Of a stretch of DNA of 64,000 bases, positions 16,328 to 25,123 are shown piece after piece (the stretch's first letter is position 1; each line of letters opens with the position of its first letter). The position numbers were made by a program, and so were the translations under genes. The stretch is from Myxococcota bacterium. Lineage in GTDB: Bacteria; Myxococcota_A; SURF-8. A model generated the notes under the pieces. That model had not been told where the DNA came from, did not search any database, and was given only the letters and a program-made list of their open reading frames with translations. The stretch covers positions 768,001 through 832,000 of the forward strand of contig CAXXQS010000001.1 in the NCBI GenBank assembly GCA_963674735.2, given 5' to 3'.

Positions 16328-17503
16328 ATGCCTATTTTTAAGGACAAGATCTTGATGACGAAAAAGGACGACAATAACCAATCCCAAGGTGTTCGCCTAG
16401 ACAGCACATCGTTGCCGCCCACGATCGACTTGGGTTTGGCGGAGGGGACGCCGCGATCGGCTAAAGAATCCCCATTGCGCGATTACGCACGTGTGTTCGA
16501 TGCTCTTCCCGATTCGGCCGTTGTCTTGAATCTGGACGGCAACATCGAGGCGATCAACCGGAATTTCCGCTTGATCACCGGCTGTACCGAAAAGCAAATT
16601 GTCGGGCGTTCTTTTTCGGAGTTCATTGTCTCGAAAACGCAGGCGGAGAACGGGCAGAAAAAAGCGGTCGAACGTTATATCATCCAATCGATTCTAGAAG
16701 AAAACGTGTCGACTTACGCGTTCGATCTGGAGCTCAAAGACCGGGACGGCAAACCCATTCCCGTCAATTTCTCCGGCTCCCCTATCTTGAACGAGGATGG
16801 AAATATCGTCGGAATCGTCGGCATCGGACGCGATTTGACCGAAACCCGCAACATGATGGAAAAGCTCGAACGTGCCGAAACCCTGGCTCAGGATTACAGC
16901 TCGCGCCTGGAAGATCAGATGGGCGAGCGCATGGCGGAAATCAAGGAGCGCACCCGTATTCTGGAAGAGCTGTCGGTAACCGACGAACTCACCAAGCTTT
17001 ACAATCGACGATACGTTTTCAAACGGCTATTTGAAGAATTGCATCGCTCGAACCGCTACGGGAATCCGTTTTCTCTGGTGGCCCTGGACATCGATCACTT
17101 CAAAGTCATCAACGACACCTATGGTCACCAGGCCGGGGATATGGTTCTCTATGAGCTTTCCGGTATTTTGCGGGGTTCGATCCGGCAGACCGATGTCGTG
17201 GCCCGCACCGGCGGCGAAGAATTCATGATTATGCTGCCCTCCATTCGGGAAGGGCACGGTTATCTGTTCTGCGAGCGCTTACGCGAGAAGGTGAAAGCCT
17301 TCCAGTTCACCTATCTTCCGGAAGGCGTACATCCGACCATTTCCATGGGGATTGCCGACTACCCGCGTGATGGCGTGCATTCCATCGACGATTTGATCCG
17401 CCTTTCCGACAATGCCTTGTACAAGGCCAAGGAAACCCGCAATACCACCATTTGCGCATCGAATGTCAAAGATGACGCAATCGAGACGGTTCGCGATAAA
17501 TAA
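16328..17503 (+). CDS. PAS-domain diguanylate cyclase
   Basis: PAS, coiled coil, TDELTKLYNRR, DIDHFK.INDTYGH..GD, I-site RQTD, active site GGEEF. Confidence 0.95.
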   Translation: MPIFKDKILMTKKDDNNQSQGVRLDSTSLPPTIDLGLAEGTPRSAKESPLRDYARVFDALPDSAVVLNLDGNIEAINRNFRLITGCTEKQIVGRSFSEFIVSKTQAENGQKKAVERYIIQSILEENVSTYAFDLELKDRDGKPIPVNFSGSPILNEDGNIVGIVGIGRDLTETRNMMEKLERAETLAQDYSSRLEDQMGERMAEIKERTRILEELSVTDELTKLYNRRYVFKRLFEELHRSNRYGNPFSLVALDIDHFKVINDTYGHQAGDMVLYELSGILRGSIRQTDVVARTGGEEFMIMLPSIREGHGYLFCERLREKVKAFQFTYLPEGVHPTISMGIADYPRDGVHSIDDLIRLSDNALYKAKETRNTTICASNVKDDAIETVRDK

Positions 17504-17581
17504 AGCGTTTGAAATGCTCTCCGAATAAAAGCGTCTTGAAGCCATCTCAAAAATGGTCCCGATGAGGGACGCATATCGGAA

Positions 17582-17748
17582 TGCCTTGCCCCCCAAAAGC
17601 TGGACCGCTGATGTGTTAGAATCCTCCGATGATTCAAGGAGGGATTCTGATGAAAGGAAAGCGGTTTTCGGACGAGCAGATCGTGACGATCTTGGAGGAA
17701 GCGGAATGCAAGATCGCGACGGTGCAGGAGATCTGCCGCAAGCACGGC
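17582..17748 (+). mobile_element. IS3-family left-end remnant (IRL plus 33 codons of orfA)
   Basis: TGCCTTGCCCCCC...TGGACC end; RBS AGGAGG; ATG 17650 MKGKRFSDEQIVTILEEAE...EICRKHG, then fused to Rhs sequence. Confidence 0.8.
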
Positions 17749-17749
17749 G

Positions 17750-18244
17750 CGACCTGAACAGGTTGTGACCGGCCAAGGCGAGGTGCTGTGGGAGGCCACC
17801 TACGGCGTTTACAACTGGCACCGGACGTACATCCCCGAACTCGGCATCTACACCAGCCTCGACCCGCTCTTCCAGAACCCCGGTGCGCTGTATGGGTATG
17901 CTGGAACAAATCCGGTTTGGAACGTGGATCCGGAGGGGAGAAATGCATGGGTCATAGGATTTATTGGAACATATATTGTTGGAAAAGCTGCTTTTGCTGG
18001 TTATGATGAATACAATAAGAGTGATAGTACGTGGGAATCTGTTGTAAAGGCATCAGCAAAAGGGGCCGGGATGGCGGTGCTTACAGTGGCTGGGTTTAAA
18101 TTTAATCGGGGTGTTGGCTTCGTGTTACTCATTACGGATGCTTTAATAACGGCAACGGATGTTGCCTTTCGTGAAGTGGAAGTTGGAGGTGATCTAAAAT
18201 CGGAAGATGTTGGTGAAGACGGTGATGAAAATTGTGATTATTAA
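17750..18244 (+). pseudogene. Orphan Rhs core remnant plus C-terminal toxin tip (cassette 1)
   Basis: YNWHRTYIPELGIYTSLDPL...YGYAGTNP...DPEG Rhs-core motif, followed by a low-GC tip with hydrophobic Gly/Ala helices. Confidence 0.85.
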
Positions 18245-18262
18245 GTATTGAGAGCAGCGATC

Positions 18263-18667
18263 ATGGTAGTGAAAAAGTTTCATATCAGAGGAAACTGGGG
18301 AATGATAACGATATTGATTCTCGTTATTTCAATTCTTCTATGTGATGTGTTCAGTAATGAAATAATATTGCCTTATGTATTTAGCATAAAGATGTTGCAA
18401 TCGGCATTATTTATATTGTATGGTATATTATCCTTACTAATTCTATTTACACATAATATTTATGTTCATACTGATAATGTGGTCGAGTTTGTTGATTTGA
18501 TTTCTAGAAAACGGATTAGTATTGACTCAATAAAGGGATTTCATTCTAAAAAAGGCCTTATTCTTTTCAGTGGCAGAAAAGTTAAGTATTTTTTCCCACG
18601 GCTACAATACTATCCCAAGAAAGATTTTCATGAATGGATAGATAAGACTTTCACAAAATTAGATTAA
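18263..18667 (+). CDS. Putative membrane immunity protein for Rhs cassette 1
   Basis: Very low GC; two TM segments; immediately follows the tip. Confidence 0.6.
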   Translation: MVVKKFHIRGNWGMITILILVISILLCDVFSNEIILPYVFSIKMLQSALFILYGILSLLILFTHNIYVHTDNVVEFVDLISRKRISIDSIKGFHSKKGLILFSGRKVKYFFPRLQYYPKKDFHEWIDKTFTKLD

Positions 18668-18824
18668 CCTTGGCCTTGACATTCAGCTATGATTTTGTTA
18701 GCTTCCATCAAAATTACGAGAAATACCCACGATCCAACATGGAGCGTTATTTGCGGCTACTAAAACCATCGGTATGCTGAGAAGAATAACCAGCAAAGTG
18801 AACAAGATGTAATAAAATTACAAA

Positions 18825-19241
18825 ATGTTTTCATTCTCCAATCCATACTTAGTTGCGCTTGGAATACCGGCCATATTATTGGCGTCAGGTGCTTTTGCAA
18901 AAAAACTGGCAAGAGGCTCATCTTGGGAGCGTTTTGATTTCTTTCTTGGAGTGGAATTCACTTTGGCAGCGATGTCATCCGCTCTCATTTATATATTTGA
19001 TTTATCTAAAATTGGTTCAACTAGTAATCCCATTCCCGTATCCTTGATGAATAAATTTGCTGCGACGGCAGTATTTATTTCACTGTCCTTTTTTTTGTTG
19101 CTTTATATACTGTCCACACACCAAGACTGGCAAAGGCGAAATAATAATCCTCGCGGTCAAATATTCTGGTTAGGTGTGATTGCTAATATTATCGGTGCAG
19201 GCCTCCTTGCGACCTTTGTATTGCTTGTTAAGGGGGTATAA
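18825..19241 (+). CDS. Four-TM membrane protein of unknown function
   Basis: 138 aa, four hydrophobic segments; stop 4 nt before the TIR gene start. Confidence 0.8.
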   Translation: MFSFSNPYLVALGIPAILLASGAFAKKLARGSSWERFDFFLGVEFTLAAMSSALIYIFDLSKIGSTSNPIPVSLMNKFAATAVFISLSFFLLLYILSTHQDWQRRNNNPRGQIFWLGVIANIIGAGLLATFVLLVKGV

Positions 19242-19245
19242 TGCA

Positions 19246-19857
19246 ATGAAACGCGATTTAATAGATAAATTTAGCAGCTTTACCAGCATCACCGGTTTAG
19301 TTATTGCGTTATTATCAGTGACACTTGATGCTCAATTCGCAAATGATTCGAACTCTCTAATGCTATCATTTATGATTGCCGCTTCAGCCATAGCTGCAAT
19401 CGGAGCATACACAAAAATATTCTCTGGAAGAAGAAGACCTAAAACAGGCAAAGGCCGAATATTTTTGATCTACGCAAAGGAAGACACGGAAAGAATTGAG
19501 AAAATATATGATGAATTAAAGAGATCAGGACTTAAGCCGTGGCTTGACACCCATGATATTCTTCCAGGTCAAGATTGGAAACAAACGATCACCGAAGCAC
19601 TTAAAGAATCTGATCTAGCACTTGCTTGTCTGTCAAAAGCCTCAGTCAGTAAAAAAGGTTTTGTTCAATCGGAACTGAAAATAGCTCTTGATATTTTAGA
19701 AGAACGATCTCGGGGAGTAAGCCCTGTTATTCCCGTACGCTTGGAGGAAACTGAAGTCCCCGAGCGACTTAAAAACTTGCAATGGATTGATTTGTTCGAG
19801 AATGGTAATATCATGAAATTAAAAACGGCGATAGAGAAAGCTTCAGCCATGGGCTGA
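19246..19857 (+). CDS. TIR-domain protein with two N-terminal TM helices
   Basis: IFLIYAKED, GLKPWLD..DILPGQDW...I..AL..SD, LSKASV.KKGFVQSEL, VIPVRLE, L.NLQWIDLF; RBS AAGGGGG overlaps the upstream gene end. Confidence 0.92.
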   Translation: MKRDLIDKFSSFTSITGLVIALLSVTLDAQFANDSNSLMLSFMIAASAIAAIGAYTKIFSGRRRPKTGKGRIFLIYAKEDTERIEKIYDELKRSGLKPWLDTHDILPGQDWKQTITEALKESDLALACLSKASVSKKGFVQSELKIALDILEERSRGVSPVIPVRLEETEVPERLKNLQWIDLFENGNIMKLKTAIEKASAMG

Positions 19858-20128
19858 ACTATGAAATTTAATTCGATCATTTATCGCGCTACTTTTCTGG
19901 GACGATAATTTCGCCGGAGGTATACGTTGAATACCAAATCAAGACGAAAGATAATGCAGTGCTCCCCGTTGTATGGACCACCTGATAAGTTAGAATCCGG
20001 GTTGCGAATGAGCCATGCGGCTCGACCGTTTGAATCGTAGCACAAATCACCTTTCCGATCATCCTTTTCGTGATACATTTATCGCACCCGTCCTGAGGAT
20101 AGGGCTCCGCTGGAGAACGACCCGAGCG

Positions 20129-20200
20129 GCGGGTGGTCGTGACAACCCCTGACCTTTGAATGACGAATGGGTGGCATGGGCTAAGCGCAGCTTGCCCATG
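20129..20200 (+). repeat. 72-bp inter-cassette repeat, copy 1 (ends in a GGTG-type REP palindrome)
   Basis: Ungapped alignment to 21104..21175. Confidence 0.85.
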
Positions 20201-20771
20201 TGCAGCCGAGGCAGATCGACGACGGCGAGGGCTACGGCGTCTACAACTGGCACCGCACGTACATCCCCGAGCTGGGCATCTACACCAGCCTCGACCCGCT
20301 GCTACAGGATCATGGGGCGCTCTACGGCTACGCCGGGGCGAATCCGATGTGGTTCGTGGATCCGGAGGGACTTTGCTATTGGGATGTGAATATTTCACTT
20401 GGAAAGTTGATTGGTGTCACAGGGGGAATTCAAATCGATCCGGAAACATGGGATATTTTTCCTTACTTAGGTGGATATGTTGGAACACCAGGCTGGTCTA
20501 TAACGCTGTCTCCAAACGATCCTGCACCAGCCGGGGTAGGTCGGGCAAATTTCTTGCCCGACACATGAATTGTCGGGCACAATGTGCCCGACCTACAGGG
20601 CTAATCGGTGCTGCATCAGGTGCACTTGCCGCTGCAACTGCTGGCGCAACAACAGCATTATCCGGCACAGTAGCTGCTACGAGCACTGTGGCAGCCACAG
20701 CGCTCACAGATTACATAACAGTTCACGGAACTGATCCGAGTCAAGACCAACAAAATGTATGTGAATATTGA
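20200..20771 (+). pseudogene. Orphan Rhs core remnant plus toxin tip (cassette 2), broken at a REPIN
   Basis: Same Rhs core motif to DPEG (20233-20370); frame stops inside the REPIN; a Gly/Ala-rich tail ending NVCEY continues in another frame. Confidence 0.8.
20536..20596. repeat. 61-bp GTAG-type REPIN (inverted REP doublet)
   Basis: GTAGGTCGGGCA-AATTTCT-TGCCCGAC, short spacer, GTCGGGCA-CAATG-TGCCCGACCTAC. Confidence 0.85.
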
Positions 20772-21100
20772 TTCCATACTATGTTAATGGAGCATACATG
20801 ATTGTAATAGAAAGATTGCTTGTCTACTCTTCGTCCCTTTCCATTTCAATTCTTTGGGGAGGGATAATTCTTGATGAGTCAAATGATTCAATAATAACAT
20901 TAATAGTGTTGGCATGTTTATATTCAATGATTCTACTTCTCCCACTGATTGTATATTATAAAAGATATGAAATTAATTTTCTAGAACATAATAAACCTAG
21001 TAAAGGAATTGGTGCGACGATATTTGCGATTATAAGTTCCATTTTCTTTCTACTAATAAATATCTATATGTTATTTTATTACGTTGTGAAGACAGGGTAG
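20768..21100 (+). CDS. Putative membrane immunity protein for Rhs cassette 2
   Basis: Very low GC; three TM segments; overlaps the tip stop codon. Confidence 0.6.
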   Translation: MIPYYVNGAYMIVIERLLVYSSSLSISILWGGIILDESNDSIITLIVLACLYSMILLLPLIVYYKRYEINFLEHNKPSKGIGATIFAIISSIFFLLINIYMLFYYVVKTG

Positions 21101-21103
21101 CCA

Positions 21104-21175
21104 GCGGGTGGCCGTGACGACCCCTGATCATTGAAAACAGGATGGGTGGCATGGGCTAAGCGCAGCTTGCCTATG
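21104..21175 (+). repeat. 72-bp inter-cassette repeat, copy 2
   Basis: Ungapped alignment to 20129..20200. Confidence 0.85.
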
Positions 21176-21554
21176 GAAAGGGAGGATGACCTGGAATCGC
21201 GCGGGTTCGTGATCGCCGAGCGCACGGGACGTCCCGAGCAAGTCGTGACCAGCCAGGGCGATGTACTGTGGGAGGCCACGTATGACGCCTACGGCGCGGC
21301 CGAGGTGTCCGTTGCGACGCTCGGCATGCCCCTGCGCTATCCCGGGCAGGTCGACGACGGCGAGGGCTACGGCGTTTACAACTGGCACCGCACGTACATC
21401 CCCGAACTCGGCATCTACACCAGCCTCGACCCGCTCTTCCAGAACCCCGGCGCGCTCTACGGCTACGCTGGGGCGAATCCGATGTGGTTCGTGGATCCGG
21501 AGGGAAAAATTGCATGGTATCCGGCTGTTGCAACTGGATACGTTTTAGCAAGAG
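21176..21554 (+). pseudogene. Orphan Rhs core remnant (cassette 3), tip truncated by an IS
   Basis: TGRPEQVV...LWEATYDAYG...PLRYPGQ.DD...YNWHRTY...DPEG; IS end starts about 50 nt after DPEG. Confidence 0.85.
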
Positions 21555-22346
21555 TGTCCACCGTCAGCGAGTTTGAGACAGTTGGTTAGGGAGAATTAAG
21601 GGAGAGTTTGGGGTATGGGGAAGCGGTTGTTGGGGCGGCGCGGGAGTTTCCGGGACCGTAGGAATTATCCCGGACGCGACCTCAGACGTCCCGCCCCGAC
21701 GCTCGTTGCAGCGTCGGGACCGCTTCCACGATTGACCATCCGTTCCGGTCCGGGTACAACCTCTGAAGGAGGAGGACCCCATGGCCACCAATGTTGTCAA
21801 ACAGATCCGCCGAAACACCCGCCGCAAATTCAGTGCCGACGAGAAGATCCGCATTGTCGTCGAATCGCTGCGCGGCGAGATTTCCATCAGCGAGCTCTGC
21901 CGCCGGGAAGGCATCCAGCCCAGCCTGTTCTATCGCTGGTCCAAACAGTTTCTCGAAGCCGGCAAGAACGGGTTAACGCGTGAGACGAAACGTGATGCCT
22001 CGGACGACGAGGTGCGTGAGCTGAAATCGGAGAACGAGCAGCTCAAGATCTCCCTGGCCGAGGCGCATCTGGCTGTCTTTATATCGCAAGACAGCCAGAT
22101 GCGCCTCGGCCAGGGAGATCTTGAGCTGCTCGTTCTCCGATTTCAGCTCACGCACCTCGTCATCACTGGCGATCGCGCTTCGTCCTCGACGCGTGTCAGG
22201 CCATTTTTGCCGGCCTCCAGAAACTGTTTGGACCAGCGGTAGAACAGGCTGGGCTGGATGCCTTCTCTGCGGCAAAGCTCGGAAATCGGGATCTCGCCGC
22301 GCAAGCTCTCGACGACGATCTGTCCCAAACTCGCTGACGGTGGACA
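21555..22346. mobile_element. Two convergent truncated IS3-family copies (orfA only) joined in a palindrome
   Basis: 27-bp ends TGTCCACCGTCAGCGAGTTTG(A/G)GACAG inverted at both borders; orfA from 21781 RRKFSADEKIRIV.ESLRGE.SISELCRREGI; no orfB. Confidence 0.9.
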
Positions 22347-22529
22347 GTCATGATCCAGCCTGACTCTCCCTTAGAAATAAACCAACATTTGTCTCCCAAC
22401 AACTAGGGTGAATATCGGAGAAGGCCATTTGGCGCGGTTAAGCTTGACAGTACCCCACAGCCCCCTTATACCGGTAGAACAGGAGACTAAATATTGTCCA
22501 CAAGGAGCCTGACTTCACCATCGGAGAGG

Positions 22530-24271
22530 CTGCGCCTGCTATTCTATTATCTATTTTATCTATTTTACTTGCTTGCTTCTTTATTTCTTCTGTTGGCTGT
22601 GGCAACAATGCTGAACAGGGTACTGCCGATGGTGACTTGACTGAACAGGATACTGCCGATGGTGATCTGACTGAACAGGATACTGCCGATGGTGACTTGA
22701 TAGAGCAAGAGGTAGCCTACCAGCGTAATACCAGCCTTGCTCCGCCGCCAAAGCCTGCAGATAGCCTTGGCTACGAAACTAAAGCCCGAACGCCCAAAGG
22801 TACAAATCCTACACCTGAAGAAATCCACTGCCTTTACCAAAAAAGTAACCGGCTTTTATAAAGACACACAGTTCTGGGATTGGGTGTATCGTGGCAGCCA
22901 CGGGCTCGACAAAAGCTACGACTCCGAAATGTTCCATTATCGCCTGTGGTGGCAAAGCGTGGGCATGGTTAAACATGGCGATGTGGTGGAATTTAAGCAT
23001 CAGTACAAGGGCACATCGGAAAACATGACTGACCGAAGCGTGAAAGTGATGGTCAATGCCATTGCCCTGTATCTGCTAACCAACGATCAACGAATAGGTG
23101 AGATTGCTGCCGGTATGATGCGCGGTATTGTAGCCCAGTCTTAGGGTTAGAGCGCGAAATTGAAGATCCCCTGGTGAAATACCTGCAGGCTCGCTCAATA
23201 TTCAATCACAATCACGAATATGAGGTCGATGGCCGCAAGGTAGCCATCAACTACGACGGCGGAAAGGTGCTTGGTTCAAGGGGAACCTGCATGTATTCAA
23301 TATTCCCGACAACCCCACTTTCGGTGACATCTGGGTGGCAAACATGCGCTCAAAAGACGATGTCCCCCAAATGTACTATTCATTGGTCATGGCCACCCGA
23401 GCTTATTACGAAGCAAAAGACGCCTACGTGCGGGAAGCAGCAGAATTGCTCATTGAATATATGCGCGTTTTGCCCAGAGTATTGAAGACATGACTGGCAT
23501 ATTCTGACCAAAATACGAAGACGGCCTGCCCGCCGAAGCCCTCAATTATCTACTCACCACTTCTGAGGTTCACACCCTCCAGCAGACCTGGGTAGCTTTG
23601 TCCATTGGCGCGATATATGGGGCCTGATGCAGAATGCAACGGTCAGTTGGGTGCGGCCATGAGTGGCTACGGTTGGCCAGCAGACCGTAAAGACTGCGAA
23701 GGCGGCTGATTGGCTGGGACTTTGAACGTTTGGCCTTCGTCAGTCATTTCTTTAACTATGAAAACTATAATTACTTCCTATTGCTGCTCTTGCTGTTTCC
23801 GAACTTTGGGGCTACCACTATATTGCCAAAGCAATCAACGAAGGCTTAGTGTACCGCTTTGAAGAAATAATGTACAACCCGGCCATGCCCAATATCGACG
23901 ATCCCCGATGTGAGGCCAACACCGCCGCCTGGTTGCTCAACGCTGCCACTTTTGGCTATGGTTTTACCGCTGAAGAAGCCCATCACGTCATGAAATGGTA
24001 CGGTGATTCGGCCGCATGGTTCAAGGCATGGCCTCACTGGGATCCGTGGTCCTCAATGTCCGATGGCCAAGAGTTGGAATCGGATAAACCTGATCGCTGT
24101 GAGTGGATTCCCGGCCAAGGCGATGAACCGGCCACCCGTGGCACCTGTTACATAAACCTGTATGAGATGCCATACATATTTGAGTACTGCTATTCCCAAT
24201 GGAAAAATCCTAATGGTGTGCCCTTCATTGATTGCGACATTGTGGCCGACCCAAGCCAGTGGGGCGAATAG
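22530..24271 (+). pseudogene. Multiply frameshifted large lipoprotein gene with DGD repeats
   Basis: Lipobox SVGC then (EQDTADGDLT)x3; successive protein-like fragments in changing frames (22737-23144, 23174-, 23849-24271); lower GC; 5' boundary approximate. Confidence 0.7.
22611..22700 (+). repeat. 30-bp tandem repeat, three copies
   Basis: CTGAACAGG(G/A)TACTGCCGATGGTGA(CT/TC)TGA units at 22611, 22641 and 22671. Confidence 0.95.
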
Positions 24272-24375
24272 AGCAAAACAGAAAGAGCTTTTGCCATCAA
24301 TAGAGTTCGTTTCCTTCCAGTGATGCTAGCATATTGTCCACTTTCTCGGATGTAATCGCTTCCAGTGTGGCGACA

Positions 24376-24605
24376 GGCCATGGGGCCCTCCTGTTTGGAG
24401 TTGTACCCGGACCGGAACGGATGGTCAATCGTGGAAGCGGTCCCGATGCTGCAACGAGCTTCGGGGCGGGGCGTCTGAGGTCGCGTCCGGGATAAACCCT
24501 ACGGTCCCGGAAACTCCCGCGCCGCCCCATCAACCGCTTTCCCATACCCCAAACTCTCCCTTAATTCTCCCTAACCAACTGTTCCAAACTCGCTGCCGGT
24601 GAACG
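24376..24605 (-). mobile_element. Third copy of the IS3-family left end (IRL, leader, first two codons)
   Basis: Reverse complement closely matches 21555..21786. Confidence 0.9.
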
Positions 24606-24635
24606 CCGGAGCAAACAAGCTCGATGATTTGCTCA

Positions 24636-24664
24636 TTGACAATCCGGCGAGCGCCAAGTATTTT
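24636..24664 (+). promoter_or_regulatory. Putative sigma70 promoter of the metal-uptake operon
   Basis: TTGACA-N17-TATTTT upstream of RBS GGAGG and ATG 24695. Confidence 0.45.
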
Positions 24665-24694
24665 GTGGGCTATTGGAGGAGGGTTTTATACAGT

Positions 24695-25123
24695 ATGCAG
24701 AAGCGAAGCCTTGGCCACTCTAAAATGTCCACGTATTTAAGCGCCGCTGCCATGCTGGCGCTGGTGCTGCGGACGACGCTTCTGACGCTGCACTTCGTTT
24801 CTCTGCCGCATGCCATCGACCCGCATACCGGCCATTTCATTCACCTGCATGAACACGCCAGCGAAGAAACCTGCCAGCATGAAGATCCCGATGCGCGATC
24901 CGGGCCGAGCATCAAAGCAGATTCGCATTCCTGCTGCGACAGTGGCGTTCATGACTGCCCGTACAACCATTTCCTTCATCAGCCATCCAGCCAGAACCTG
25001 GGCCAGGCCGACACAGCCGGAATCCTGCCGCCGTCTGCGACGTCCGGCCTTCCGAATGGACGCTCCCCTTTCATACGTGATGATCTCCACCTCTTGGCCC
25101 CGATGAATTCACCTCCCGTGTAA
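24695..25123 (+). CDS. DUF2946-like His/Cys-rich leader protein
   Basis: Signal/TM segment, His cluster, CC...HDCPY, C-terminal LAPMNSPPV; first gene before a TonB-dependent receptor operon. Confidence 0.7.
   Translation: MQKRSLGHSKMSTYLSAAAMLALVLRTTLLTLHFVSLPHAIDPHTGHFIHLHEHASEETCQHEDPDARSGPSIKADSHSCCDSGVHDCPYNHFLHQPSSQNLGQADTAGILPPSATSGLPNGRSPFIRDDLHLLAPMNSPPV

What the first reader, a model, noticed from the sequence alone, without database searches (positions are those of the whole stretch)
18825..19857. Intact two-gene operon (4TM protein plus membrane-anchored TIR) inside a decayed Rhs array: candidate new anti-phage system
Seen: two tightly coupled low-GC genes 4 nt apart, with the RBS of gene 2 inside gene 1. 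They are intact while the neighbouring Rhs and IS sequences are broken. Gene 2 is 2TM+TIR and keeps the Glu at the usual catalytic position (FVQSEL). Neither gene follows a toxin tip, so neither is simply an Rhs immunity gene. Established: bacterial TIR domains are NAD+-consuming enzymes that act as signal makers (Thoeris ThsB) or effectors (CBASS, Pycsar), and small TM proteins are common defence effectors. No SIR2, SLOG, Macro, cyclase or NTPase partner is present, so the pair fits none of those architectures. Inference: a membrane-localised sensor/TIR or TIR-signal/pore pair responding to phage or to incoming membrane toxins.
Basis: partly seen in the sequence, partly recalled or inferred. 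Interest (0 to 1): 0.8.

Follow-up and report, generated by a model that had tools for sequence, protein, structure and literature searches.

The report
Membrane-tethered TIR with conserved 4TM partner
Two tightly coupled genes, one for a small four-helix membrane protein and one for a membrane-anchored TIR (NAD-cleaving) enzyme, form a conserved mobile pair found in many bacterial phyla; it is probably an uncharacterised conflict or anti-phage module, but no defence role has been shown.

Summary
Window 18825-19241 encodes a 138-aa four-helix membrane protein. Window 19246-19857 encodes a 203-aa protein with two membrane helices and a TIR domain (Pfam TIR_2, E 8.5e-29). The genes are 4 nt apart, and a Shine-Dalgarno-like AAGGGGG lies inside gene 1.

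The pair is not tied to Rhs. Of 15 genomes carrying a gene-1 relative, 12 have a TIR gene directly downstream on the same strand, and none has Rhs nearby. The two proteins' divergences track each other (r 0.89). The pair has lower GC than its surroundings in 15 of 15 loci and in the window. The gene-1 tree conflicts with taxonomy, so this is a mobile cassette.

Gene 1 belongs to a sizeable family (389 representatives) with no Pfam, NCBIfam or PADLOC name and no fold relative in the PDB. Both genes match PHROG families of unknown function. The catalytic Glu is kept in all 34 TIR-bearing homologues aligned.

The TIR is closest to NAD-depleting effector TIRs (SPARTA-type), not to ThsB. One clade keeps gene 1 plus a 2TM stub without a TIR.

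Context does not support defence: known defence genes are rare nearby. My best reading is a membrane complex that controls a tethered TIR NADase. A Thoeris-like pore model is the main rival. I rate it a new variant of a known kind.

The parts
18825..19241 (+). Gene 1: a 138-aa inner-membrane protein with four helices. The predicted topology is N-out/C-out. Two conserved cytoplasmic loops (AKKLxRGxxWxRxD after helix 1; HQDWxxR..NPRGQ after helix 3) contrast with a variable periplasmic loop.
   Evidence: ORF and translation. Hydropathy and positive-inside count. AlphaFold2 model with pLDDT 82.4. Family of 389 representatives at E <= 1e-3. Conserved columns. No Pfam, NCBIfam or PADLOC family. phrog_25392 at E 8.5e-32.
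19230..19236 (+). Shine-Dalgarno-like AAGGGGG for gene 2, inside the last codons of gene 1. It suggests translational coupling.
   Evidence: Read directly from the sequence. The same tight junction, from an 8-nt overlap to a 3-nt gap, was seen in the 10 related loci whose ORF ends could be read directly.
19246..19458 (+). Gene 2, residues 1-71: a basic N-terminus, two membrane helices joined by a short loop free of basic residues, then a basic juxtamembrane stretch (RRRPKTGKGR). This is a hairpin anchor with both ends in the cytoplasm.
   Evidence: A small-residue-rich second helix and a near-invariant Arg62 are seen.
19459..19803 (+). Gene 2, residues 72-186: a cytoplasmic TIR domain. The catalytic Glu143 is encoded at 19672-19674.
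   Evidence: Pfam TIR_2 E 8.5e-29. Glu present in 34 of 34 TIR-bearing rows. Profile match to the PdTIR structure 3h16 at E 1.3e-11. Fold matches to Hydra TRR-2 and MyD88 TIRs and, among bacterial proteins, SPARTA TIR-APAZ and AbTir.
19804..19857 (+). Gene 2 C-terminal helix and TGA stop.
17765..18667 (+). Context only, not part of the module: orphan Rhs core end plus toxin tip (17765-18244), followed by a 139-aa 2TM ORF (18248-18667) in the position of an immunity gene.
   Evidence: Rhs_assc_core E 2.4e-9. Repeat family D1. Hydropathy. No relatives in the 15 related loci.
20160..21589 (+). Context only: two further orphan Rhs core ends (20200-20568 and 21131-21589) with a 110-aa membrane ORF between them (20768-21100).

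Best explanation
The pair is a self-contained, horizontally mobile two-gene conflict module. It most likely acts by abortive infection or exclusion against phages or other invading DNA. It landed by chance in the variable part of an orphan Rhs cassette.

Gene 1 makes a strongly conserved four-helix inner-membrane protein whose conserved face points into the cytoplasm. Gene 2 makes a two-helix hairpin that tethers a catalytically competent TIR domain to the cytoplasmic face of the same membrane.

Proposed mechanism:
1. The 4TM protein and the 2TM hairpin form a heteromeric membrane complex.
2. In the resting state this complex keeps the tethered TIR domains apart and inactive.
3. A trigger at the membrane or its cytoplasmic face lets the TIR domains cluster.
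4. Like other effector-type TIRs, they then hydrolyse NAD+ and stop growth.

Shown here: the gene structures, the TIR fold and catalytic Glu, the membrane topology by the positive-inside rule, co-occurrence, co-divergence, mobility, and the absence of any third partner.

Inferred: the physical complex, the NADase activity, the trigger, and the biological role in defence.
For: Conserved unit:
- 12 of 15 genome loci with a gene-1 relative carry a TIR gene directly downstream on the same strand. One of the 12 (L007) is frameshifted.
- Pairwise identities of the two proteins correlate at r = 0.886 over 21 pairs, and 0 of 2000 Mantel permutations reached that value. Ten of the pairs are adjacent genes that I checked. 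Eleven are matched only by equal contig length.

Mobility:
- The pair's GC is lower than the rest of the locus in 15 of 15 loci and in the window.
- The gene-1 tree conflicts with taxonomy. Competibacteraceae is sister to Smithella (96/84), and cyanobacteria are nested among proteobacteria.
- Transposase, integrase, primase-helicase or phage head genes lie nearby in L001, L003, L004, L005 and L012.
- Both genes match PHROG families: phrog_25392 at E 8.5e-32 and phrog_24215 at E 2.4e-12, the latter covering the membrane part as well.

Competent TIR in the cytoplasm:
-.

The TIR looks like an effector type:
- The best PADLOC models are pAgo-associated TIR (8.7e-15) and SAVED-TIR (3.4e-11). ThsB models reach only 2e-4 or worse.
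- The best NCBIfam model is retron-TIR (1.4e-11).
- The best bacterial fold matches are SPARTA TIR-APAZ and AbTir.

The membrane pair looks like the core and the TIR like an add-on:
- L004 and L009 keep an intact gene 1 followed by a short 2TM-only gene that aligns with the gene-2 anchor.
- These two loci fall in one six-row clade with 91/91 support.

Precedent for a membrane tether restraining a TIR NADase:
- Dictyostelium TirC (PMC13142454, passages read).
Against: - No defence-island signal. 0 of 22 ORFs within about 15 kb in the window match PADLOC at E <= 1e-6.
- Among 113 neighbour ORFs of the 15 loci, only two DNA methylases (L004), one PDC-S31-like protein (L010) and one PrimPol (L001) look defence- or mobile-related. 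The other hits are generic ATPases, a helicase, a GlgB-like enzyme and ankyrin repeats.
- Several loci lie between housekeeping genes (L006, L007, L010, L015).
- No tblastn match of gene 1 in 50,697 phage records or 72,556 plasmid records.
- Gene 1 is much more conserved than gene 2 (mean identity 61% against 38%), and its conserved residues are cytoplasmic. In signalling systems that pattern is more typical of an effector than of a sensor, which favours the Thoeris-like rival.
- A physical complex between the two proteins has not been shown.
- The TIR-less clade rests on two loci, and the clade support (91/91) is below the tool's starred level.
Confidence: 0.4

Rival explanations
1. A Thoeris-like signalling pair. 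On infection the tethered TIR makes an ADP-ribose-derived signal. The gene-1 protein is the effector: a small oligomeric pore or channel opened when the signal binds its basic and aromatic cytoplasmic loops.
For: - TIR plus small membrane effector pairs have been shown to defend. Examples are type V with the 3TM DUF2270 protein, type VII with SLATT and type X with an ion channel. A further set of membrane proteins has been predicted (10.64898/2025.12.03.692087; sections 5 and 6 and passages).
- The conserved residues of gene 1 lie in the two cytoplasmic loops and are rich in Lys, Arg, Trp and His: K26, K27, R30, W34, H99, W102.
- The partner is conserved and the TIR is variable (61% against 38%), as expected for an effector paired with a sensor.
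Against: - Gene 1 matches none of the named Thoeris effector families or any other Pfam family. P0001 had no family hit, and 100 diverse members gave only 4 singleton chance-level hits. NCBIfam and PADLOC also gave nothing.
- The TIR scores far better against effector-type TIR models than against ThsB models.
- The TIR is itself membrane-anchored, and the protein has no soluble domain besides the TIR.
- A clade without a TIR keeps gene 1 and the anchor.
- There is no defence-island enrichment.
Confidence: 0.25
2. A membrane toxin-antitoxin or addiction cassette. The TIR NADase is the toxin, and the upstream, translationally coupled 4TM protein neutralises it. This stabilises the mobile elements or islands that carry the pair.
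For: - The gene order and tight coupling resemble antitoxin-then-toxin operons.
- Toxin-antitoxin genes lie nearby in L002 (MazE) and L008 (HEPN, CopG), and mobile-element genes lie nearby in five loci.
- Distribution is patchy and GC is low.
Against: - The putative antitoxin is the more conserved partner, and it is retained where the TIR is absent.
- No match in 72,556 plasmid records.
- No DNA-binding domain is present for autoregulation.
Confidence: 0.12
3. Part of the Rhs system of this genome: extra immunity or accessory genes of the first orphan Rhs cassette.
For: The pair lies inside the low-GC variable segment between Rhs repeat copies 1 and 2, downstream of a tip and an immunity-like ORF.
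Against: - None of the 15 related loci has an Rhs fragment or a relative of the window's tips or immunity-like ORFs. tblastn found no hits, and Pfam found no RHS among 120 neighbour ORFs.
- An ORF already occupies the immunity position (18248-18667).
Confidence: 0.05
4. A non-conflict membrane function. Examples would be a TIR used as a protein-interaction scaffold, or an NAD-linked stress signal at the membrane.
For: - There is no defence neighbourhood.
- Several loci lie among housekeeping genes.
- Some bacterial TIR proteins act by protein binding (recalled, not tested here).
Against: - The catalytic Glu is kept in 34 of 34 TIR-bearing rows.
- Distribution is patchy and horizontally transferred, with low GC in every locus.
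- The PHROG matches and the prophage head-module neighbour in L012 point to mobile elements.
Confidence: 0.1

Closest known systems
Thoeris systems with small membrane effectors (types V, VII and X of Yirmiya et al. 2025 preprint, 10.64898/2025.12.03.692087)
   Same: A two-gene operon with a catalytically competent TIR protein next to a small multi-helix membrane protein with no enzymatic domain. The partner has a conserved, positively charged cytoplasmic surface.
   Different: - Gene 1 matches no named effector family (DUF2270, DUF6650, SLATT and the rest).
- The TIR itself carries a 2TM anchor.
- By profile and fold the TIR is nearer to effector TIRs than to ThsB.
- No defence-island context was found.
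- I could not check whether the family is among that paper's predicted but unnamed effectors, because they are listed in a figure and supplementary tables I could not see.
Effector-type TIR NADases: SPARTA TIR-APAZ, CBASS TIR-SAVED and TIR-STING, retron-TIR
   Same: These are the closest TIR relatives by PADLOC and NCBIfam profiles and by fold. In those systems the TIR is silent until it is brought together by oligomerisation, and then it depletes NAD+ (established for those systems; recalled).
   Different: No Argonaute, APAZ, SAVED, STING, cyclase or reverse transcriptase is present in the protein or next to it. Here the only other parts are membrane helices and a 4TM partner.
Phage lambda RexAB exclusion system
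   Same: A two-gene module, prophage-linked in at least one locus, that includes a membrane protein of about 140 aa with four helices. RexB is 144 aa in the fetched record; its four-helix character is recalled, not tested here.
   Different: There is no sequence relationship: hhalign probability 0.7% and BLASTP E 34. RexA is not a TIR protein. This is an analogy of layout only.
Dictyostelium TirC (PMC13142454)
   Same: A small protein with an N-terminal membrane tether and a C-terminal TIR NADase. Removing the tether releases toxicity (passages read).
   Different: It is eukaryotic, has a single helix and has no partner gene. It descends from TIR-STING-type bacterial TIRs.

Membership tests
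TIR domain superfamily (Pfam TIR_2, PF13676) | Sequence match above the curated cut-off, with a flavodoxin-like TIR fold | tested here: met
   101 bits against a cut-off of 28. 97 PDB fold matches at E <= 1e-3, all listed top ones TIR domains.
TIR domain superfamily (catalytic subclass) | Conserved catalytic Glu in the (W/F)xxxEL motif | tested here: met
   E143 is present in 34 of 34 TIR-bearing rows and aligns to the KEL motif of PdTIR 3h16. Enzyme activity itself was not tested.
Thoeris | A TIR gene adjacent to a gene of a recognised effector family (SIR2-SLOG, Macro-TM, caspase-like, DUF2270, DUF6650, SLATT, CMP hydrolase, ion channel, hydrolase) | tested here: not met
   Gene 1 has no Pfam, NCBIfam or PADLOC family. 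100 diverse members gave only 4 singleton chance-level Pfam hits. The predicted but unnamed effectors of 10.64898/2025.12.03.692087 could not be compared.
Thoeris | The TIR makes an ADPR-derived signal on infection, and that signal activates the partner | not testable with these tools
   Needs infected-cell lysates, LC-MS and toxicity assays.
Thoeris and defence systems in general | Enrichment next to known defence genes | tested here: not met
   0 of 22 window ORFs. Plausible defence or mobile hits in 3 of 15 loci. The sample is small, so this result is weak.
CBASS or Pycsar with a TIR effector | An adjacent CD-NTase or pyrimidine cyclase, and a signal-binding domain (SAVED, STING) on the TIR protein | tested here: not met
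   No such domain in gene 2, in 120 neighbour ORFs or in window ORFs.
SPARTA / TIR-APAZ with short pAgo | An APAZ domain fused to the TIR and an adjacent Argonaute gene | tested here: not met
   Gene 2 is 203 aa, and only the TIR part aligns (PADLOC Aga_TIR model positions 4-120 of 430). There is no Argonaute neighbour.
Rhs toxin-immunity cassette | The immunity gene lies directly after the toxin tip, and co-occurs with Rhs or other polymorphic toxins in other genomes | tested here: not met
   ORF 18248-18667 lies between the tip and the pair. No Rhs in any of the 15 related loci.
Lambda RexB family | Sequence or profile similarity to RexB | tested here: not met
   hhalign probability 0.7%. 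BLASTP E 34.
PHROG families phrog_25392 (gene 1) and phrog_24215 (gene 2) | Full-length profile match | tested here: met
   E 8.5e-32 over profile positions 6-138 of 138, and E 2.4e-12 over positions 9-194 of 200. Both families are annotated 'unknown function'.

The most novel reading that the evidence does not exclude
The conserved core is the 4TM protein plus the 2TM hairpin. Together they would form a new kind of inner-membrane sensor that reports a membrane-level insult, such as phage genome entry, holin insertion or depolarisation. A cytoplasmic output domain is hung on the hairpin. That domain is a TIR NADase in most lineages. It is absent in an acidobacterial clade, and one 316-aa metagenomic read-through form (P0241) carries an unidentified C-terminal part instead of a TIR. 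If so, this would be a bacterial counterpart of a Toll-like-receptor layout, with a membrane receptor and a cytoplasmic TIR, built from two small proteins.
Probability: 0.2. Interest if true: 0.8.

Novelty: new variant of a known kind. Interest (0 to 1): 0.55.

Why it matters
Bacterial TIR systems studied so far use soluble TIR proteins, either as signal makers (Thoeris) or as effectors joined to soluble sensors. This pair puts the TIR on the membrane beside a strongly conserved partner that has no known family or fold relative.

The partner family has 389 representatives at the 50% identity level, across at least seven phyla: Pseudomonadota, Cyanobacteriota, Acidobacteriota, Thermodesulfobacteriota, Myxococcota and others.

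If the pair is a defence module, it would add a membrane-based way of controlling TIR NADases. It would also give names and functions to two PHROG families now annotated as unknown. If it is a Thoeris type, it would add a new minimal pore effector and a tethered signal maker. Both outcomes can be tested with two small genes in a laboratory host.

Tried and rejected
- Complex prediction of gene 1 with residues 1-72 of gene 2, both as alignments, gave no verdict (score 0.00, partner fold uncertain, after two queue-full refusals). It counts neither for nor against binding.
- Gene-1 fold search against the PDB found 0 matches at E <= 1e-3. The best was E 1.9, a generic helical bundle.
- The gene-1 profile against PDB sequences found nothing (best E 2).
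- The ESM Atlas returned only unnamed clusters; the largest listed has 436 members.
- tblastn of gene 1 found no match in the plasmid or phage collections.
- blastn of the pair against E. coli complete genomes found no match. I therefore found no link to the E. coli TIR-I to TIR-IX systems of PMC11350192 (passages read). That paper does not say in its text which system carries the membrane domain.
- The homologue search with the 105-aa TIR-less partner of L004 found only itself. The extent of the TIR-less lineage is unknown.
- The long form P0241 (316 aa) has no Pfam family in its C-terminal part. My by-eye impression of a RelE/ParE-like motif there is unsupported, and I dropped it.
- Promoter-like sites near the pair are no more frequent than chance: 8 found, 6.3 +/- 2.4 expected.
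- No Rfam family in 17000-25000.
- RexB homology is rejected.
- Literature searches found no paper describing a 4TM protein paired with a 2TM-TIR protein. This covers only the open-access library searched, and supplementary tables were closed.
Full report
**What is there**

Window 18825-19241 (+) is an intact ORF of 138 codons, and 19246-19857 (+) is an intact ORF of 203 codons. They are separated by 4 nt, and AAGGGGG lies 9 nt before the second ATG, inside the first gene. The pair has GC 0.398 in a window that averages 0.553 outside the island.

Gene 2 matches Pfam TIR_2 at E 8.5e-29 over residues 72-186. Its N-terminal 70 residues form two hydrophobic helices with basic residues on both cytoplasmic sides, so the TIR domain is predicted to sit in the cytoplasm.

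Gene 1 has four hydrophobic segments. The positive-inside rule puts loops 26-38 and 93-116 in the cytoplasm and loop 58-73 in the periplasm. AlphaFold2 gives a confident four-helix model with pLDDT 82.4 and pTM 0.71.

**Surroundings in the window**

Three copies of the last 161 nt of an Rhs core lie at 17778-17938, 20210-20370 and 21345-21505. Each is followed by a different short tip and a small membrane ORF. IS3-type transposase fragments lie at 17629-17757 and 21781-22242.

No long Rhs-like ORF heads the array, and Pfam gave no RHS match for the other ORFs scanned between 1.5 and 36 kb. None of 22 ORFs in that span matches a PADLOC model at E <= 1e-6.

The pair lies in the low-GC variable segment of the first orphan cassette, after an ORF (18248-18667) that already occupies the immunity position.

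**The pair is a conserved unit and does not depend on Rhs**

- Gene 1 has 74 relatives at 48-84% identity in the 5.8-billion-protein collection, nearly all 130-150 aa.
- A profile of 35 of them finds 389 representatives at E <= 1e-3, 239 at <= 1e-10 and 45 at <= 1e-30, out of 1.84 billion cluster representatives. Among the 150 listed, all are short stand-alone proteins except one of 316 aa.
- Gene 2 has about 35 full-length relatives of about 200 aa with the same 2TM-TIR layout, plus many other TIR proteins.
- Twelve contig lengths occur in both hit lists. This suggests, but does not prove, shared contigs.
- A scan of one genome per species found 15 loci with a gene-1 relative (99 pattern matches, 15 confirmed).
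- In 12 of the 15 loci, a TIR gene related to gene 2 follows directly on the same strand. In the 10 loci whose ORF ends could be read directly, the junction ranges from an 8-nt overlap to a 3-nt gap. One of the 12 (L007) is split between two frames.
- In L004 and L009 the downstream gene is a short (105 and 76 aa) 2TM protein that aligns with the gene-2 anchor but has no TIR.
- In L014 gene 1 itself is truncated.
- None of the 15 loci contains an Rhs fragment or a relative of the window's tips or immunity-like ORFs.
- No third gene recurs among 120 neighbour ORFs.

**Co-inheritance and mobility**

Across 21 pairs, the pairwise identities of the two proteins correlate at r = 0.886, and 0 of 2000 permutations reached that value. 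Relatedness alone can produce such a correlation, so it shows co-inheritance, not contact.

The pair's GC is below that of the rest of the locus in all 15 loci, by 0.03 to 0.205. Part of this may reflect membrane-protein codon content.

The gene-1 tree (42 rows) conflicts with taxonomy. Hosts include Pseudomonadota, Cyanobacteriota, Acidobacteriota, Thermodesulfobacteriota and Myxococcota.

Mobile-element genes are close by in five loci:
- L001: primase-helicase.
- L003: IS30-type transposase.
- L004: transposases and two phage-like DNA methylases.
- L005: integrase, IS91 and rve genes.
- L012: a phage head module, with the portal gene directly beside the pair.

Both genes match PHROG families of unknown function over their full lengths. 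Even so, tblastn of gene 1 against the deposited phage and plasmid collections found nothing.

**What the proteins tell us**

*The TIR.* It keeps its catalytic Glu in every TIR-bearing homologue aligned, 34 of 34. Its best profile matches are effector-type TIRs: pAgo-associated at 8.7e-15, SAVED-TIR at 3.4e-11 and retron-TIR at 1.4e-11. ThsB models reach only 2e-4. The fold search ranks Hydra TRR-2 and MyD88 TIR domains first. Among bacterial proteins the best matches are SPARTA TIR-APAZ and AbTir.

*Gene 1.* It has no Pfam, NCBIfam or PADLOC family. One hundred diverse members gave only four singleton chance-level Pfam hits. It has no PDB relative by sequence or by fold.

Its conserved positions cluster in the two cytoplasmic loops and the adjoining helix ends: AKKLxRGxxWxRxDFxLGxE and HQDWE. 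Across 100 diverse members G42 is invariant, and P15, H99, L116, N121 and G124 are at least 90% conserved. The periplasmic loop varies in length and sequence. Gene 1 is more conserved than gene 2 (61% against 38% mean identity).

**Weighing the mechanisms**

Two readings fit.

In its favour:
- The TIR's nearest relatives are effector types.
- Gene 2 has no other soluble domain.
- A TIR-less clade keeps gene 1 and the anchor. L004 and L009 fall in one six-row clade with 91/91 support.
- Dictyostelium TirC provides a precedent: its membrane tether restrains the NADase (PMC13142454, passages read).

In the second reading, the pair is a Thoeris-like system. The tethered TIR makes a signal, and gene 1 is a small pore gated at its basic and aromatic cytoplasmic loops. 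In its favour:
- TIR plus small membrane effector systems have been verified (10.64898/2025.12.03.692087; sections 5 and 6 and passages read).
- The partner is conserved and the TIR is variable.

A toxin-antitoxin reading (0.12), a non-conflict role (0.10) and an Rhs accessory role (0.05) are less likely, for the reasons given under the rivals.

The weakest point of any defence reading is context. Known defence genes are rare near the pair.

**Comparison with known systems and novelty**

The TIR domain is an ordinary member of the TIR_2 family. The pair as a system fails the tests I could run for Thoeris effector families, CBASS, Pycsar, SPARTA, Rhs immunity and RexB.

In layout it resembles Thoeris types with small membrane effectors, and lambda RexAB. 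In likely regulation it resembles tethered or oligomerisation-gated TIR NADases.

Five literature searches of the open-access library found no description of a 4TM protein paired with a 2TM-TIR protein. I could not see Figure 1C or the supplementary tables of the Thoeris survey, so the family may already be among its predicted effectors.

I rate the finding a new variant of a known kind, with interest 0.55. It is a real, widespread and unnamed module with an unusual membrane-tethered TIR, but so far there is no evidence of function.

Noticed in passing
L004 9983-10737; L009 9986-10625: Two Acidobacteriota genomes keep an intact gene-1 relative followed by a short 2TM-only gene (105 and 76 aa) with no TIR. 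The two gene-1 proteins fall in one clade with four metagenomic relatives whose partners are unknown.
   Followed up: partly
L012 3805-11037: In a Tateyamaria genome the pair sits directly beside a phage head module: portal, head protease and capsid, head-tail adaptor, and tail completion protein. The pair is oriented divergently to that module. Both genes also match PHROG families of unknown function (phrog_25392, phrog_24215).
   Followed up: partly
window 18825-19241: The gene-1 protein is absent from the 5.8-billion-protein collection, while the gene-2 protein of the same window is present. Gene 1 was therefore probably not called, or was called with another start, in the source genome.
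   Followed up: no
window 17940-18244, 18248-18667, 20768-21100: The first orphan Rhs tip is hydrophobic and Gly/Ala-rich with a strongly acidic tail. The ORFs in the immunity positions are small membrane proteins with 2 and 3 predicted helices. This would suit membrane-acting toxins. None has a Pfam family.
   Followed up: partly
window 21556-24604: A 205-nt inverted repeat (95% complementary) at 21556-21760 and 24400-24604 brackets 2.6 kb. That segment holds an IS3-type orfA fragment in inverted duplication (21853-22319), a 30-nt unit repeated three times (22611-22710), and three ORFs with no family (22737-23144, 23174-23485, 23849-24271).
   Followed up: no
protein P0241 (metagenomic, 316 aa): This is the only long form among the 150 best gene-1 relatives. 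It has gene-1 helices 1-3, then a 2TM segment, then a C-terminal part with no Pfam family and no TIR. It may be a read-through or frameshift artefact, or a different output domain on the anchor.
   Followed up: partly
L007 3161-3749: The TIR gene of this metagenome-assembled genome is split between two reading frames. This is either a frameshift or an assembly error.
   Followed up: no
L010 5520-6455; L014 14112-15077: A DUF2971 protein (PADLOC PDC-S31-like in L010) lies within about 4.5 kb of the pair in two alphaproteobacterial loci.
   Followed up: no
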